From NCBI GenBank assembly GCA_051117555.1, contig JBNPEG010000178.1, forward strand, positions 1 to 25,972: 25,972 bases of DNA. Reading direction: 5' to 3'. The number at the start of each line of letters is the position of its first letter. Position 1 is the stretch's first letter. Shown here in pieces: positions 246-22,535 of this stretch. Below the pieces are notes generated by a model. The model had not been told where the DNA came from and did not search any database. It saw nothing but the letters and a program-made list of their open reading frames with translations. The stretch comes from Elainellaceae cyanobacterium. Lineage in GTDB: Bacteria > Cyanobacteriota > Cyanobacteriia > CAZCXK01. The translations under genes were made by a program, and so were the position numbers.

Positions 246-1796
246 ATGAACATTACCCGCAAAAAATTTCTGGGGCTGACAGGCGGCGCGATCGCCACGT
301 TGCCCCTCGGTTCGATGGCTTTCACAGCCTGTAACAAACGGTTGGCGTTACCAGATAATCGGGGCAGAAAGGATGCGATCGCCATCACCCCCTTTCAAGT
401 CCCGTTGCCAGTTCCCCCAGTACTTCAACCCGTCCGCAACGACAGCACCACGGACTACTACGAAATCACCCAAAAGGCAGGAGAGATAGAAATTCTGCCG
501 GGACTCCGCACCCCAATTTTGGGCTATAACGGCAGTTTTCCCGGTCCTACCATTTCTGTTTCCAGTGGACGTCAAGTGGTAGTCAGACACCAAAATGAGC
601 TGCCAGTGCCCACAGTGGTTCACCTGCACGGGGGCAAAACACCCCCAGAGAGCGACGGCTACGCGACTGATCTGATTTTGCCAATTCACGCTACCGACCC
701 CCAAGGGGCCGTCCATTCAGCCCACCCAACCGTTGGCGGCATCGGTCACGGCTTCAAAGACTACACTTACCCCAACCAGCAGCCCAGCGCCACCCTCTGG
801 TATCACGATCATCGAGATATGTTCACGGGGCCACAGGTATACAAAGGGTTGGCGGGCTTTTACCTGATCCATGACGCCGTTGAGGAGGCATTGCCTCTGC
901 CCAAAGGCGATCAGGACATTCCCCTGATGATCAGCGACCACATTTTTAACGAAGATGGCTCCTTCTTTTATCCCTCCCTTGACCCAGAACTGCATGAACC
1001 GGGGCTGGCTAATGGCTACCATAATGGAGTACAGGGCAACACGATTCTAGTCAACGGTGCGCCCTTTCCCTTTCTCGAAGTGTCGAATACGCGCTATCGC
1101 TTCCGGTTCTTAAATGCTTCCAATCGCCGTATTTACAAGCTTGCCCTCGACCCGGCACCGGCAGAGGTTGCATTCACGCAGATTGGCAGCGATGGGGGGT
1201 TACTGCCTGCTCCAGTTCCGCAGACTAAGCTGGTGATAGCCCCTGCCGAACGCTTTGATGTCGTGATCGACTTCTCCCATTACGCGGTTGGCACTCAAGT
1301 AGGGTTGAGAAACCTGGATGGAGAAGGGGCCACATCACAGGTGATGCGCTTTGATGTAGTGCGATCGCAACCCGACGACAGCACCATCCCCGCTCAACTG
1401 GCCCCCGACTGGGAAACCCCGGACCCAGAACAGGCGGAGGCCACTCGTCGCATTATCCTGAGACGAGCCGGGAAACGGTTTCAAATCAATGGCAAAGAAT
1501 TTGACCCCAACCGCACCGACATTTTTCCCCGACTGGGCTCAACGGAAATTTGGGAAATCTTTGCCGATATCCCCCACCCCTTCCACATGCATCTGGCTCA
1601 CTTTCAGGTGCTCTCTCGCAATAATCAGGCTCCCGCACCCTGGGACATCGGTTGGAAAGACACAGTTCGAGTAGGACCAAGGGAAATGGTGCGGATAATC
1701 CCCCGCTTTACCCCCTACCGAGGAAAGTTCATGTACCACTGTCACATGCTGGAGCACGAAGATCTAGGCATGATGGATAATTTTGAGGTGATTTAA
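246..1796 (+). CDS. Multicopper oxidase (CotA/bilirubin oxidase-like), probably exported
   Basis: All four Cu-binding motifs present: HLHG, WYHDH, HPFHMH, HCHMLEHEDLGMM. Tat-like N-terminus (TRKKFLG) followed by a lipobox-like FTAC. Confidence 0.93.
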   Translation: MNITRKKFLGLTGGAIATLPLGSMAFTACNKRLALPDNRGRKDAIAITPFQVPLPVPPVLQPVRNDSTTDYYEITQKAGEIEILPGLRTPILGYNGSFPGPTISVSSGRQVVVRHQNELPVPTVVHLHGGKTPPESDGYATDLILPIHATDPQGAVHSAHPTVGGIGHGFKDYTYPNQQPSATLWYHDHRDMFTGPQVYKGLAGFYLIHDAVEEALPLPKGDQDIPLMISDHIFNEDGSFFYPSLDPELHEPGLANGYHNGVQGNTILVNGAPFPFLEVSNTRYRFRFLNASNRRIYKLALDPAPAEVAFTQIGSDGGLLPAPVPQTKLVIAPAERFDVVIDFSHYAVGTQVGLRNLDGEGATSQVMRFDVVRSQPDDSTIPAQLAPDWETPDPEQAEATRRIILRRAGKRFQINGKEFDPNRTDIFPRLGSTEIWEIFADIPHPFHMHLAHFQVLSRNNQAPAPWDIGWKDTVRVGPREMVRIIPRFTPYRGKFMYHCHMLEHEDLGMMDNFEVI

Positions 1797-1863
1797 GCCC
1801 GGTTATCTTCATCAGCCTAATTTTCTCAAAGGCTTCAAAGGTTTGAATCAGGTTAAGGAAAAC

Positions 1864-2061
1864 CTATTTCTTCGAACAGTAATCGCTTAGCTCCAAACGA
1901 TAGACAAAGCAATCGTCCTCGCCAAGCTGGCGTCGTTCTACCCGTCGAAAGCCCAACTTTTCATAGAACCGATGGGCGCGGATATTGTTCATCAGCGGAT
2001 CAACCAGAGCTGCCGTCAAGTCTGGGTCAGTAAAGCAGTAAGCCAGGGCAAGCTGCATCAT
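1864..2061 (-). pseudogene. C-terminal fragment of a GNAT acetyltransferase (AAC(6')-like)
   Basis: VDPLMNNIRAHRFYEKLGF is the GNAT C-terminal motif. Only 65 aa; the acetyl-CoA-binding N-terminal half is missing. Confidence 0.75.
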
Positions 2062-2115
2062 TAGCCTGAATAGCTATTTGCCGAAATGAGACGTGCTAGT
2101 TGGCAAAGCAACCTC

Positions 2116-2160
2116 TTGTCACTTAGTGACATTTAGCGTTATTCTGTCACTTAGTGACAG
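2116..2160 (+). promoter_or_regulatory. Two identical palindromic operators overlapping a sigma70-type promoter, likely TetR autoregulation
   Basis: TGTCACT-T-AGTGACA at 2117-2131 and 2145-2159. TTGTCA (2116) and TATTCT (2140) are 18 bp apart, directly upstream of tetR. Confidence 0.85.
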
Positions 2161-2179
2161 ACTTTGAAAGAAGACTGTC

Positions 2180-20506: not shown

Positions 20507-20554
20507 TTCACGCTGACTAAAACACAAGGAAACTAAAACAGAGAGAAACTCCCT

Positions 20555-21289
20555 ATGTTGAATGTAGAAAACAAAGTGATTGCTATCACCGGAGCCAGTA
20601 GCGGGATTGGTGAAGCAACGGCTAGATTGCTGGCTCGTCAGGGTTTACAGGTGATGTTAGGGGCGCGACGCACCGATCGACTGGAAGCAATTGCTGCCGA
20701 AATTCGTTCTAAAGGCGGCAAAGCAGAATACCGTGCCCTGGATGTCACCAACCTCGAAGACATGCAAGCCTTTGTCGAGATTGCCCAGGATAAATTTGGT
20801 CGCCTTGATGTTGTGGTGAACAATGCAGGCTTGATGCCGCTCTCCAGGCTAGAGGTGCTGAAGATCGATGAATGGAACCGCATGATTGATGTGAACATTC
20901 GCGGTGTGCTTCACGGGATTGCTGCTGCACTACCTCTCTTTAAGCAGCAACGATCCGGGCAGTTTGTCAATCTATCCTCGATTGGCGGGCACAACGTCTA
21001 TCCAACCGCAGCCGTATACTGCGCCACTAAGTTTGCAGTTTGGGCGATTTCCGAGGGACTGCGGCAAGAATCGAGAGACATCCGGGTTACGGTGATTTCG
21101 CCTGGAGTGACGGAAACTGAACTTGCCAGCACGATCACGGATGCTGAAGCAGCGGAATGGGTGGAGGGATTTCGTGAGGCCGTAATTCCAGCAGACGCGA
21201 TCGCCCGTGCGATTGCCTTTGCGATCGAGCAACCCGCAGAGGTGGATGTGAATGAAATCATTGTTCGACCGATTGGACAAATGAGCTAA
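20555..21289 (+). CDS. Short-chain dehydrogenase/reductase
   Basis: TGASSGIG, NNAG and YCATK motifs. Confidence 0.95.
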   Translation: MLNVENKVIAITGASSGIGEATARLLARQGLQVMLGARRTDRLEAIAAEIRSKGGKAEYRALDVTNLEDMQAFVEIAQDKFGRLDVVVNNAGLMPLSRLEVLKIDEWNRMIDVNIRGVLHGIAAALPLFKQQRSGQFVNLSSIGGHNVYPTAAVYCATKFAVWAISEGLRQESRDIRVTVISPGVTETELASTITDAEAAEWVEGFREAVIPADAIARAIAFAIEQPAEVDVNEIIVRPIGQMS

Positions 21290-21324
21290 ATCTCGGAAGT
21301 TGAAGAAACACAGGAGAAGTAATC

Positions 21325-22311
21325 ATGCAGATGCGAAAGCTAGGCAATCAAGGACTAATGGTTTCAGCGATGGGGTTGGGCTGCATGGGCATGTCTGAGT
21401 TCTATGGCAGCACTGATGATCAAGAATCAATCGCTACCATTCATCATGCAATTGATCTCGGCATCAACTTCTTTGACACCGCAGATATGTATGGTCCATT
21501 TACAAATGAGCAGCTCGTTGGACAGGCAATCCGCGATCGCCGTGATCAAGTGATTGTTGCTACCAAGTTTGGTAACGTTCGCACATTGGATGGGCAATTT
21601 CTAGGCGTGAGTGGTAAACCTGACTACGTACGCTCTGCTTGTGATGCCTCTTTGCAGCGCTTGGGAATTGACACAATTGATCTCTACTATCAACATCGGG
21701 TTGATCCGACTATACCGATCGAAGAAACAATCGGAGCAATGGCAGAACTGGTAAAGCAAGGCAAGGTTCGCTATCTTGGTGTGTCAGAAGCAGCGCCAGC
21801 TACAATTCGACGAGCGCAAGCAGTTCATCCGATCAGCGCATTGCAAACAGAATACTCGCTATGGAGCCGCGATCCAGAGGATGAGATTCTTCCCACAGTG
21901 CGCGAATTGGGGATCGGCTTTGTTGCCTACAGTCCGCTAGGGCGCGGCTTCCTCTCGGGTGCAATTACCAAACCAGAAGATTTAGATCCAACCGATTTTC
22001 GCAGCCAATCTCCTCGCTTTCAGGGTGAAAATTTTTACAAGAATCTGCAATTGGTCGAGCAAGTGAAGGCGATCGCGGTTGAAAAAAGCGTCACGCCCAG
22101 TCAGCTTGCTCTGGCTTGGCTCTTAGCCCAGGGGCAAGATATTGTACCGATCCCAGGAACGAAACGTCGCAACTATTTAGGAGAGAATGCAGCCGGAGCA
22201 GACATTACCCTTACACCAGAAGACCTACAGCGCATCGAAGTAGTTGCACCAAAAGGAATTGCTGTTGGAGAACGTTATGCAGCTCGACATATGAGCAGTG
22301 TAAATCAGTAA
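21325..22311 (+). CDS. Aldo/keto reductase
   Basis: [27 protein letters not shown] and PIPGTK motifs. Confidence 0.96.
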
Positions 22312-22434
22312 ACGCATTCAGAAATGAACAATCGTCTTTCCCACAGCCGTAGTCGCGAGTCTCGCTACTGCCGAGATCTTTCGCCGTAGCGGATCGGTCT
22401 GGACTGCTGTCATTGTTCACGTCGTTTGCAACTT

Positions 22435-22535
22435 GCCCACAATTCCGGTGATGGTAGCTGCTGGCATGGGCTGATAAAACGGTTCGGAGTGCGATCGCTC
22501 ACCTGTAGTAGCGCGACAAGTTTAAACTGTTGGGC
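22435..22535 (+). other. Degenerate attC-like site
   Basis: GCCCA-CAATTCCGGTGAT resembles GCACAACAATTCCGTTGAT at 3628. Ends in GTTGGGC (GTTRRRY), complementary to GCCCA(A)C. Confidence 0.4.

What the first reader, a model, noticed from the sequence alone, without database searches (positions are those of the whole stretch)
246..22535. Unidirectional mosaic gene array with attC-like scars: candidate eroded cassette array or gene-capture hotspot
Seen: about 22 intact genes, all on +, unrelated in function and alternating between visibly GC-rich (TetR, CocE, CPBPs) and AT-richer (DUF1400, RDD). Two spacers have full R''...R'-like ends (3628-3746, 22435-22535) and share caattccg.tgat. R''-like heptamers fall at or just after stop codons (9867 GCACAAC, 13051 GCCCAAT, 16366 GCCTAAC, 17814 GCATAAC overlapping the TAA). 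Homology boundaries between paralogous units coincide with these motifs at 3740, 9867 and 16372. Established: integron cassettes are co-oriented, end in RYYYAAC near the stop codon, and begin at G/TTRRRY. Inference: a decayed integron/CALIN-like array now reshuffled by other means. Caveats: 7-mers this degenerate occur by chance, and no integrase is in view.
Basis: partly seen in the sequence, partly recalled or inferred. Interest (0 to 1): 0.8.

Follow-up and report, generated by a model that had tools for sequence, protein, structure and literature searches.

The report
Conserved cyanobacterial operon, one attC scar
The one-directional gene row is not a worn-out integron cassette array but a gene cluster that many cyanobacteria share in nearly the same order, into which a single integron cassette was once inserted and has since decayed.

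Summary
The array-level reading fails. The genome does hold an integron integrase (another contig) and about 24 attC sites of one family with strong covariation. None of them is in the window at genome scale. The window holds one significant but broken attC (15221-15289) and a roughly 40-nt attC fragment (22693-22733).

The two claimed "full" attC-like spacers are something else. 3628-3652 and 22331-22474 are 3' remnants of CPBP protease genes, and 3653-3819 is a conserved intergenic spacer. RYYYAAC heptamers occur at chance frequency.

Window 2063-16317 is a TetR-headed, co-oriented cluster: TetR, RDD, CPBP x2, CocE, SpoIIM-like, four unknown membrane or small proteins, DUF1400, NmrA, RidA, class D beta-lactamase. 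It recurs in 31 loci of many cyanobacterial genera in largely the same order, with no attC. Its modules are 81-93% identical in DNA across families where rpoB is 74-76%, so it spreads horizontally.

The broken attC belongs to one decayed small cassette inserted between RidA and the beta-lactamase. RidA is a genuine attC-flanked cassette in one other genome. The scan had not noted this cluster before.

The parts
2063..2179 (+). Left edge of the conserved cluster. It is a promoter/operator region with two copies of the perfect palindrome TGTCACTTAGTGACA (2117-2131 and 2145-2159).
   Evidence: Homology to relatives begins at 2063-2068 in 9 loci. The palindrome lies upstream of TetR in 11 of 12 TetR-bearing loci; the 12th has no upstream DNA.
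2180..2851 (+). TetR-family regulator, 61% GC.
   Evidence: PF00440 E 2.6e-12. Found in 12 of 31 related loci at 75-97% aa.
2869..2974 (+). Tandem duplication of a 53-nt unit that carries a ribosome-binding site and an ATG.
   Evidence: family D7, 98% identity.
3000..3476 (+). RDD-family membrane protein.
   Evidence: PF06271 E 2.3e-22.
3519..3603 (+). Repeated leader with a 10-bp hairpin. A second copy lies at 16540-16622. In relatives it follows AraC-type genes and precedes CPBP or RidA genes.
3628..3652 (+). Degenerate last codons of a deleted CPBP267-like gene. This is the claimed R'' end.
   Evidence: Alignment to L070, where the intact gene ends at the homologous place. The 14-nt motif is shared with the CPBP remnant at 22439-22452.
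3653..3819 (+). Conserved spacer between the CPBP267 and CPBP350 genes. It contains the claimed R' end at 3740-3746.
   Evidence: 3519-3830 is 88-93% identical in L072, L067, L060, L066, L081 and the paralogous contig C224.
3766..4818 (+). CPBP (Rce1-like) intramembrane protease, 350-aa ORF. The likely start is ATG 3820.
   Evidence: PF02517. The start is inferred from the RBS read.
4858..5598 (+). Second CPBP protease.
   Evidence: PF02517. Adjacent to CPBP350 in 11 loci.
5373..7517 (+). CocE/NonD-family (S15) hydrolase. The start codon is uncertain, because the ORF overlaps the previous gene.
   Evidence: TIGR00976 327 bits, cut-off 66. PF02129.
7607..7708 (+). Fragment homologous to the 5' leader of the RidA unit (14493-14546).
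   Evidence: A 24-nt pattern occurs twice in the window against 0 expected, and nowhere else in the genome.
7749..8429 (+). SpoIIM-like membrane protein.
   Evidence: PF01944. SpoIIM-unk99 adjacency in 17 loci.
8496..9187 (+). Two small genes of unknown function (99 aa and 139 aa, overlapping). The second reads as a membrane protein.
   Evidence: No Pfam or NCBIfam match. Adjacent in 22 loci.
9225..9857 (+). Unknown multi-pass membrane protein (unk210). Its paralogue lies at 13257-13907.
   Evidence: Cyanobacterial hypothetical clusters only. 31 related loci.
9932..11611 (+). DUF1400 alpha/beta hydrolase.
   Evidence: PF07176 E 2.3e-42.
12128..13045 (+). NmrA-like NAD(P)-binding protein.
   Evidence: PF05368.
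13101..13199 (+). Pseudogene fragment of the RidA 5' coding region.
   Evidence: 84% identical to 14635-14734.
13257..14418 (+). unk216 (paralogue of unk210) and unk157.
14491..14985 (+). RidA/YjgF-family protein. The likely start is ATG 14584.
   Evidence: PF01042. 91% nt identity to an attC-flanked cassette in G028.
15114..15212 (+). Decayed small cassette ORF, with an internal deletion and a frameshift relative to the G029 copy.
   Evidence: Homology to L035 1749-1717 and 1632-1522, which encode the end of a roughly 60-aa ORF just before an intact attC.
15221..15289 (+). attC relic. R'', L'' and the centre are kept. The L' arm is mutated and the R' GTT is lost.
   Evidence: nhmmer 31.8 bits, genome-wide E 5.8e-7, model positions 2-66 of 93. 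Covariance model 14.4 bits. 86% identical to an intact attC in L036. No hairpin, z +0.63.
15400..16317 (+). Class D (OXA-type) beta-lactamase.
   Evidence: NF012161 279.9 bits, cut-off 250. 66% aa identity to OXA-2.
16390..16533 (+). 3' remnant of an AraC-type regulator gene.
   Evidence: Reading. Homology to the 3' ends of AraC genes in C224 and many loci.
16579..17382 (+). CPBP267 protease.
   Evidence: PF02517 E 4.7e-18.
17392..17819 (+). Internally deleted copy of CPBP350. It lacks the equivalent of 3833-4419.
   Evidence: G002 has the full gene at this place.
17879..22311 (+). AraC regulator, SnoaL-like protein, two SDRs and an aldo-keto reductase. In relatives this unit usually lies upstream of TetR.
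22331..22474 (+). 3' pseudogene fragment of a CPBP267-like gene. It covers the start of the claimed spacer 22435-22535.
   Evidence: 47-aa in-frame alignment to 17239-17382.
22503..22550 (+). Small conserved non-coding element, also found in G002. It holds the claimed R' at 22529-22535.
   Evidence: 91% over 47 nt to L051.
22693..22733 (+). Fragment of the central part of an attC.
   Evidence: 22 nt identical to an own-genome attC on C248. Matches the inside of attCs in L047, L049 and L038 at 83-93%. nhmmer 8.9 bits.
23030..23766 (+). Putative antitoxin (81 aa) and DUF3368 protein, flanked by direct repeats of about 130 nt (22757-22894 and 23882-24008).
   Evidence: PF11848. The homologous pair lies directly before an intact attC in L036. 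Repeats.

Best explanation
Window 2063-16317 is one copy of a conserved, co-oriented, TetR-headed accessory gene cluster of filamentous and other cyanobacteria.

Inferred mode of action:
- TetR binds the two palindromes at 2117-2159 and represses one or a few long transcripts.
- The products are mostly envelope proteins: RDD, two to three CPBP intramembrane proteases, a SpoIIM-like protein and unknown membrane proteins.
- The rest are hydrolases or reductases: CocE/NonD, DUF1400, NmrA, RidA and a class D beta-lactamase.
- Together they would form an inducible envelope defence or detoxification unit.

The cluster moves between cyanobacterial lineages by horizontal transfer. It diversifies by gain, loss and duplication of gene-sized pieces. 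This most likely happens by homologous or illegitimate recombination between repeated stretches: the AraC-end/leader repeat, RidA fragments, CPBP paralogues, and a second copy of the cluster on contig C224. That history leaves pseudogene stumps and explains the GC mosaic.

Separately, the resident integron system inserted one small cassette between RidA and the beta-lactamase gene. That cassette has since decayed and can no longer fold.

Shown: conservation, co-orientation, horizontal spread, the relic and its homologues. Inferred: regulation, function and the recombination mechanism.
For: (1) 31 loci from many genera carry the same genes in largely the same order at 65-98% aa identity. L071 matches the window's order from CPBP246 to OXA exactly. 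216 of 219 matched genes are co-oriented. Adjacencies: unk99-unk139 in 22 loci, SpoIIM-unk99 in 17, CPBP350-CPBP246 in 11, RidA-OXA in 8.

(2) The operator palindrome is conserved upstream of TetR in 11 of 12 loci.

(3) There is no attC in those 31 loci. The best hits in 451 kb are 21.1 bits (E 0.05) and 17 bits (E 0.52). There is none in the arrays of G027, G002:C15, G005 or C224, except an intact one about 1.2 kb from an AraC homologue in G005:C166 and a 23.5-bit relic in G014:C7.

(4) Horizontal spread. Modules are 81-93% identical in DNA to G005, G027, G014 and G028, where rpoB is 74-76%.

(5) A second, rearranged copy lies on C224 at 77-93% identity.

(6) Seven of the 8 loci with RidA next to OXA share an ~85-nt hairpin spacer. 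The window has 414 nt there. The extra DNA is homologous to a small ORF plus attC that is intact in G029 and G013.
Against: The function is not tested, and four genes have no family. No transcript data are at hand, so 'operon' rests on spacing and conservation.

Three attC-like hits are the top three nhmmer hits in the window, and all three are intergenic on the + strand. Only 1 of 20 shuffles gave a hit of 8 bits or more. This is more than one isolated cassette would predict, although one of the three is explained as a CPBP remnant.

Order is not conserved in the same-genus genome G002, where only a 7.9-kb contig with a different order was found.

The attC model was built from this genome's own family, so unrelated attC types could be missed.
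Confidence: 0.8

Rival explanations
1. The whole array is a former integron cassette array (CALIN) whose attC sites have eroded almost beyond recognition. The conserved order reflects spread of the already fossilised array.
For: The genome has intI and about 24 attCs scattered in small clusters and singletons. There is one significant and one short attC relic on the + strand in spacers. RidA is an attC-flanked cassette in G028, and the DUF3368 pair precedes an attC in G013. All genes are co-oriented.
Against: Of 26 window proteins, only RidA, the toxin-antitoxin pair and a weak SDR fragment match 223 kb of real cassette arrays. Spacers of 35-75 nt leave no room for a roughly 92-nt attC. The cluster has its own regulator and operator. 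No attC relic was found at the same junctions in 31 loci. The one relic is an insertion absent from the closest loci.
Confidence: 0.06
2. The array is a hotspot of a different, non-integron gene-exchange system. Gene-sized modules are swapped at dedicated junction sequences by an unknown recombinase.
For: Modules appear in different order in G027, G002, G005 and C224 while staying co-oriented. Several breakpoints fall a few bases before a ribosome-binding site or just after a stop: 4845/4846 in three contexts, 9187-9204, 9867-9872 and 14992. A leader repeat recurs 3-5 times per cluster.
Against: No common motif was seen at 61 breakpoints, and HIP1 is not enriched there (3 within 12 nt against 1.7 expected, p 0.24). 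Some breakpoints lie inside genes (7505, 8406, 14575). No recombinase gene travels with the cluster in G027 or in the window. BLAST ends are only approximate breakpoints.
Confidence: 0.1
3. The internal and C224 paralogy is an assembly artefact, caused by two strains in one assembly.
For: There are 256 contigs. Both window ends are repeats shared with other contig ends.
Against: Contamination is 0.36% and completeness 100%. C224 differs in gene content and order, not only in sequence. Duplications also lie within the one contig.
Confidence: 0.03

Closest known systems
CALIN / decayed sedentary chromosomal integron arrays (Cury et al. 2016, PMC4889954; passages read)
   Same: Co-oriented accessory genes. 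The genome holds intI and attCs. One attC relic and one attC fragment lie in the window.
   Different: A CALIN needs two or more recognisable attC sites close together. Here none reaches threshold genome-wide. The genes have their own regulator and sit in tight spacers. Their order is conserved across genera without attC.
Isolated cassettes inserted outside att sites ('SALIN', attG route; Loot et al., bioRxiv 10.1101/2022.09.11.507474; abstract and outline read; expansion of the acronym recalled)
   Same: A single small cassette (ORF plus attC) sits inside an unrelated gene cluster, in a genome that encodes IntI elsewhere.
   Different: The cassette is decayed: the ORF is broken and L'/R' are lost. 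The insertion junction (14992/14993) shows no clear GTT target. A related locus (L069) has a similar relic upstream of the same OXA allele, so it may have arrived by allele exchange rather than by direct insertion here.
TetR-repressed accessory or detoxification operons
   Same: A divergently unencumbered TetR gene heads a co-oriented gene row, with paired palindromic operators just upstream.
   Different: Unusual length (14 or more genes), unusual content (three CPBP proteases, RDD, SpoIIM-like, four unknowns), and modular variation between genomes. No inducer is known.
OXA-2 family class D beta-lactamases
   Same: 66% aa identity over 89% of the protein. NF012161 is above its cut-off.
   Different: Below the OXA-2 family cut-off (442 against 590 bits). 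Chromosomal, in a cyanobacterial cluster, with no attC of its own downstream. Activity is untested.

Membership tests
CALIN / integron cassette array | Two or more attC sites detected by a covariance model, within a few kb of each other. | tested here: not met
   Model R1 was built from 14 own-genome attCs. There was no hit on the window's contig in the genome scan at E <= 1. With filters off, the only intergenic + strand hits are 14.4, 9.9 and 9.1 bits. IntegronFinder's own model was not available.
CALIN / integron cassette array | The attC folds as an R''-L''...L'-R' hairpin with bulged bases. | tested here: not met
   The family shows 82.5% paired cells and 40 double-change cells against 17 in shuffles. 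The window relic lacks L' and R' and does not fold (z +0.63). The two claimed spacers do not fold end to end either.
CALIN / integron cassette array | Each unit is a mostly promoterless ORF followed by its own attC. | tested here: not met
   Twelve of the 22 spacers are 35-75 nt or are overlaps. The attC of this genome is 91-95 nt.
CALIN / integron cassette array | Cassette content and order vary between close relatives. | tested here: inconclusive
   Order is largely conserved in 31 loci of many genera. It is different in G002, G027, G005 and C224.
Complete integron (the genome, not the window) | An integron-type tyrosine recombinase next to attI and cassettes. | tested here: met
   C211:1230-2198 scores 466 bits with TIGR02249 (cut-off 265). 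A divergent ORF with an attC lies at C211:222-314 (86 bits). Linkage to the window is unknown.
Isolated inserted cassette (SALIN-like) | A single attC with an adjoining cassette ORF, away from any integrase. | tested here: met
   15114-15289 is homologous to an ORF plus intact attC in G029 and to an attC in G013. It is now degenerate.
Isolated inserted cassette (SALIN-like) | Insertion at a 5'-GTT-3' type secondary site. | tested here: inconclusive
   The junction with the conserved spacer is at 14992/14993 (GTTTCGC|GTAAC). The 3' junction is blurred by replacement of the OXA 5' region.
Class D beta-lactamase | A match to the curated class D model above its cut-off. | tested here: met
   NF012161 279.9 bits against 250.
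TetR-controlled operon | A TetR gene with a palindromic operator in its own upstream region, and co-transcribed downstream genes. | tested here: inconclusive
   The palindromes are present and conserved. Binding and co-transcription are not testable with these tools.

The most novel reading that the evidence does not exclude
This widely shared cyanobacterial cluster and the cyanobacterial integron pool exchange genes. The RidA gene sits in the conserved cluster context in a dozen or more genomes. In G028 it is a complete attC-bounded cassette at 91% DNA identity, sharing only about 65 nt upstream and about 20-35 nt downstream with the cluster copies. If the direction is cluster to cassette, this is a rare snapshot of how a chromosomal gene becomes an integron cassette. 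The cluster's OXA-2-like beta-lactamase lies beside an attC relic, which would make such clusters a candidate reservoir for cassette-borne genes.
Probability: 0.12. Interest if true: 0.7.

Novelty: new member of a known kind. Interest (0 to 1): 0.3.

Why it matters
The result shows that a co-oriented, compositionally patchy gene row with AAC/GTT-like motifs can be an ordinary conserved cluster, even in a genome that really has an integron.

The side results may be useful:
- The attC family has clear covariation and 5 to 54 copies in each of six genomes from five cyanobacterial families.
- A 14-gene accessory cluster of unknown role spreads between cyanobacterial orders.
- One gene, RidA, is seen both as operon member and as cassette.

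I found no description of the cluster. Searches were aimed at integrons and OXA enzymes, not at the cluster itself, so this is not a claim that it is unpublished.

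Tried and rejected
(1) HIP1 (GCGATCGC) as the recombination site. It lies within 12 nt of 3 of 61 breakpoints against 1.7 expected (p 0.24), so I dropped it.

(2) A family-independent AAC...GTT duplex scan. 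It recovered only 16 of 20 known attCs, at energies from -6 to -19.5 kcal/mol. At -12 kcal/mol it gave 8 window hits against 3.5 in shuffles. None lies at a claimed site. Its power is too low to count either way.

(3) C211:2745-2880 first looked like an attC after a gene stop. It is a dispersed repeat with about 30 copies.

(4) Rfam at gathering thresholds found nothing in the window.

(5) The best covariance-model hit in the window is 10517-10602 on the minus strand (23.5 bits). It lies inside the DUF1400 gene, lacks the AAC/GTT boxes, and recurs at the homologous coding place in C224 and L071. I read it as coding-sequence chance.

(6) 3626-3658 as an attC 5' remnant (nhmmer 8.6 bits). It is better explained as the end of a deleted CPBP gene.

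(7) No attC remnant was found downstream of the DUF3368 pair.

(8) The protein atlas gave only hypothetical cyanobacterial clusters for unk210.

(9) Earlier scan notes held nothing on this cluster.

Not used: structure prediction, complex prediction, sequencing-run look-ups.

Full report
WHAT THE WINDOW IS. The window is a whole 25,972-bp contig (C197) of a 6.06-Mb, 256-contig genome. The genome is rich in the cyanobacterial HIP1 octamer, with 36 copies in the window. Between 246 and 22311 every credible gene is on the + strand: multicopper oxidase, TetR, RDD, CPBP350, CPBP246, CocE/NonD hydrolase, SpoIIM-like, three unknowns (99, 139 and 210 aa), DUF1400 hydrolase, NmrA, a paralogue of the 210-aa unknown, another unknown (157 aa), RidA, a class D beta-lactamase, CPBP267, a truncated CPBP, AraC, SnoaL-like, two SDRs and an aldo-keto reductase. 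Composition is patchy. The genome is 48.8% GC, four genes are 61-62% and three are 44%. The descriptive part of the finding therefore holds.

IS THERE AN INTEGRON SYSTEM AT ALL? Yes, but elsewhere. A search of the genome with the integron-integrase model gave 466 bits (cut-off 265) on contig C211, plus fragments on C168. Beside that gene lies a divergent ORF followed by a site with AAC...GTT ends. Similar sites were gathered by BLAST and nhmmer. Fourteen copies align with strong compensatory change in an 18-pair structure that has two bulged bases: 82.5% of cells are paired, and 40 double-change cells compare with 17 in shuffles, 0 of 500 shuffles as high. A covariance model built from them (R1) finds 24 sites in the genome at E <= 1, on 15 contigs, and none on the window's contig. 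The same family has 38, 54, 26, 24 and 5 copies in five related genomes. Two of those genomes have integrases above the cut-off. Integrons in Cyanobacteria, CALINs and isolated attC sites are in print (PMC4889954, passages read).

THE CLAIMED SCARS. With filters off, R1 gives 13 weak hits in the window.
- The best (23.5 bits) is on the minus strand inside the DUF1400 gene, without AAC/GTT boxes. It recurs at the same coding place in C224 and L071.
- 15220-15308 scores 14.4 bits and 3625-3663 scores 9.9 bits. Nothing covers 22435-22535.
- A sequence-only profile of 22 attCs gives one significant hit genome-wide, 15221-15283 (31.8 bits, E 5.8e-7, model positions 2-66 of 93).
- Within the window alone there are two marginal hits, 22693-22733 and 3626-3658. 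Only 1 of 20 shuffles gave a hit of 8 bits or more.
- RYYYAAC is not enriched: 51 against 45.0 +/- 5.8.
- 22331-22474 translates in frame to the last 47 residues of a CPBP protease, so 'caattccggtgat' there encodes part of that protein.
- In L070 an intact CPBP267-like gene ends exactly where the window has 3628-3652. What follows (3653-3819) is the conserved spacer before CPBP350.
- The whole of 3519-3830 is 88-93% identical in six other loci.
- 22503-22550, which holds the claimed R' end, is a small element also present in G002.
- Neither claimed spacer folds end to end.

THE ARRAY IS A CONSERVED CLUSTER. A first comparison with 30 relatives showed window genes at 80-94% DNA identity in other families, co-oriented but in other orders (G027, G005, G002, G014). 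It also showed a rearranged second copy on contig C224. That looked like shuffling. A wider search with the 210-aa unknown then returned 31 loci from Kaiparowitsia, Vasconcelosia, Sphaerothrix, Phormidesmis, Scytonema, Rivularia, Synechocystis salina, Halomicronema, Nodosilinea, Leptolyngbya, Egbenema, Phormidium, Calothrix, Microcoleus and others. Mapping the window's proteins on them shows one recurring order: TetR, (RDD), CPBP350, CPBP246, CocE, SpoIIM, unk99, unk139, (unk157), (NmrA), unk210/216, (DUF1400), (NmrA), then RidA and OXA. Identities are 65-98% aa. One Nodosilinea locus (L071) matches the window's order from CPBP246 to OXA. 216 of 219 matched genes are co-oriented. A perfect 15-nt palindrome, present twice upstream of TetR in the window, is kept upstream of TetR in 11 of 12 loci. 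R1 finds no significant attC in these 451 kb. The multicopper oxidase has no counterpart in these loci, and homology begins at 2063, so the cluster starts there.

HORIZONTAL SPREAD. rpoB of this genome is 90% identical in DNA to the same-genus genome G002, and 74-76% to G005, G027, G014 and G028. Cluster modules are 81-93% identical to those four. Some are less similar to G002 (80-84%) than rpoB is. The cluster therefore has a history of its own. The two copies in this genome (window and C224) differ in content, which fits separate acquisitions or old duplication.

WHERE THE MOSAIC COMES FROM. The window is littered with stumps:
- an AraC 3' end (16390-16533);
- a CPBP350 copy with an internal deletion (17392-17819);
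- CPBP 3' ends (3628-3652 and 22331-22474);
- RidA 5' and leader fragments (13101-13199 and 7607-7708);
- a 53-nt tandem duplication (2869-2974).
A leader with a hairpin recurs several times per cluster. I infer that recombination between such repeats, and between paralogous clusters, moves gene-sized pieces. No common motif or HIP1 enrichment marks the 61 approximate breakpoints.

THE ONE REAL CASSETTE. Seven of the 8 loci with RidA next to OXA have the same ~85-nt spacer with a hairpin. The window has 414 nt. The extra DNA is homologous to the end of a roughly 60-aa ORF and its intact attC in G029 (44.7 bits), and to an intact attC in G013 (77.5 bits, 86% identity). In the window the ORF has a deletion and a frameshift, and the attC has lost L' and R'. 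L069 has a comparable relic upstream of the same OXA allele, so relic and allele may have travelled together.

RidA is an attC-bounded cassette in G028, at 91% DNA identity. Homology is limited to the gene plus about 65 nt upstream and 20-35 nt downstream. The antitoxin/DUF3368 pair at 23.0-23.8 kb lies directly before an attC in G013 and has a relative near an attC on own contig C227. Of 26 window proteins compared with 223 kb of real arrays, only these and a weak SDR fragment matched.

VERDICT. The window holds a conserved, horizontally spreading, probably TetR-controlled cluster with one decayed inserted cassette and a junk zone at 22.3-24.1 kb that holds an attC fragment.

LIMITS. The attC model is family-specific. 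IntegronFinder was not available. Function and transcription are inferred. Supplements of the cited papers were not read.

Noticed in passing
G000 contig C211:1-2200 (locus L001): A complete-looking integron start: intI (1230-2198, +) and a divergent 141-aa ORF (347-772, -) with an attC (222-314, -). The sequence GTTATGCCGA occurs three times in the 773-1229 region and may be integrase-binding repeats of attI. The array runs off the contig start.
   Followed up: partly
L001 2745-2880, with about 30 copies genome-wide: A dispersed repeat of about 130 nt with inverted ends, probably a MITE. It mimics an attC after a stop codon.
   Followed up: partly
G000 contig C224 (locus L032): A second, rearranged copy of the cluster at 77-93% identity. 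It lacks the SpoIIM-like gene and has an extra 546-aa TAP-like hydrolase, two AraC genes and a third CPBP.
   Followed up: partly
window 15400-16317: The class D beta-lactamase is 66% identical in protein to plasmid-borne OXA-2, and 69% identical to a beta-lactamase on a plasmid of [Synechococcus] sp. NIES-970. That OXA-2 is cassette-borne is recalled, not from a call.
   Followed up: partly
L033 (G028:C92) 3213-4102: RidA as a complete integron cassette in an array of four attCs. Its ORF starts with a signal-peptide-like extension right after the attC. The window's copy lacks that extension.
   Followed up: partly
window 12003-12058: A 56-nt element upstream of NmrA, with many copies (86-88%) in genome G013 and one on own contig C13.
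   Followed up: no
window 16540-16622, 3519-3603 and many loci: A leader of about 85 nt with a 10-bp hairpin, found after AraC-type genes and before CPBP or RidA genes, 3-5 copies per cluster. It may be a promoter or regulatory element. There is no Rfam match.
   Followed up: partly
window 22757-22894 and 23882-24008: Direct repeats of about 130 nt (a 54-nt core is identical) bracket the antitoxin/DUF3368 pair. A related copy lies on contig C188.
   Followed up: no
window 22642-22700: A short ORF whose translation (…ALDTSAAIRFLNG…) resembles the N-terminus of PIN-domain toxins. This rests on reading only and was not tested.
   Followed up: no
window 24795-25709 (-): A TIR-domain protein gene at 37.5% GC (z -3.2). 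It is the only clear minus-strand gene and lies outside the finding.
   Followed up: no
window 1-126 and 25843-25972: Both contig ends are repeats shared with the ends of 8 and 2 other contigs, so the neighbours of this contig are unknown.
   Followed up: partly
window 1897-2060 (-): The spacer before the cluster reads like the 3' part of an acetyltransferase gene on the minus strand. This rests on reading only.
   Followed up: no
L069 about 1500-2100: A MITE with inverted ends has inserted into the attC relic upstream of the OXA allele in a Nodosilinea MAG.
   Followed up: no
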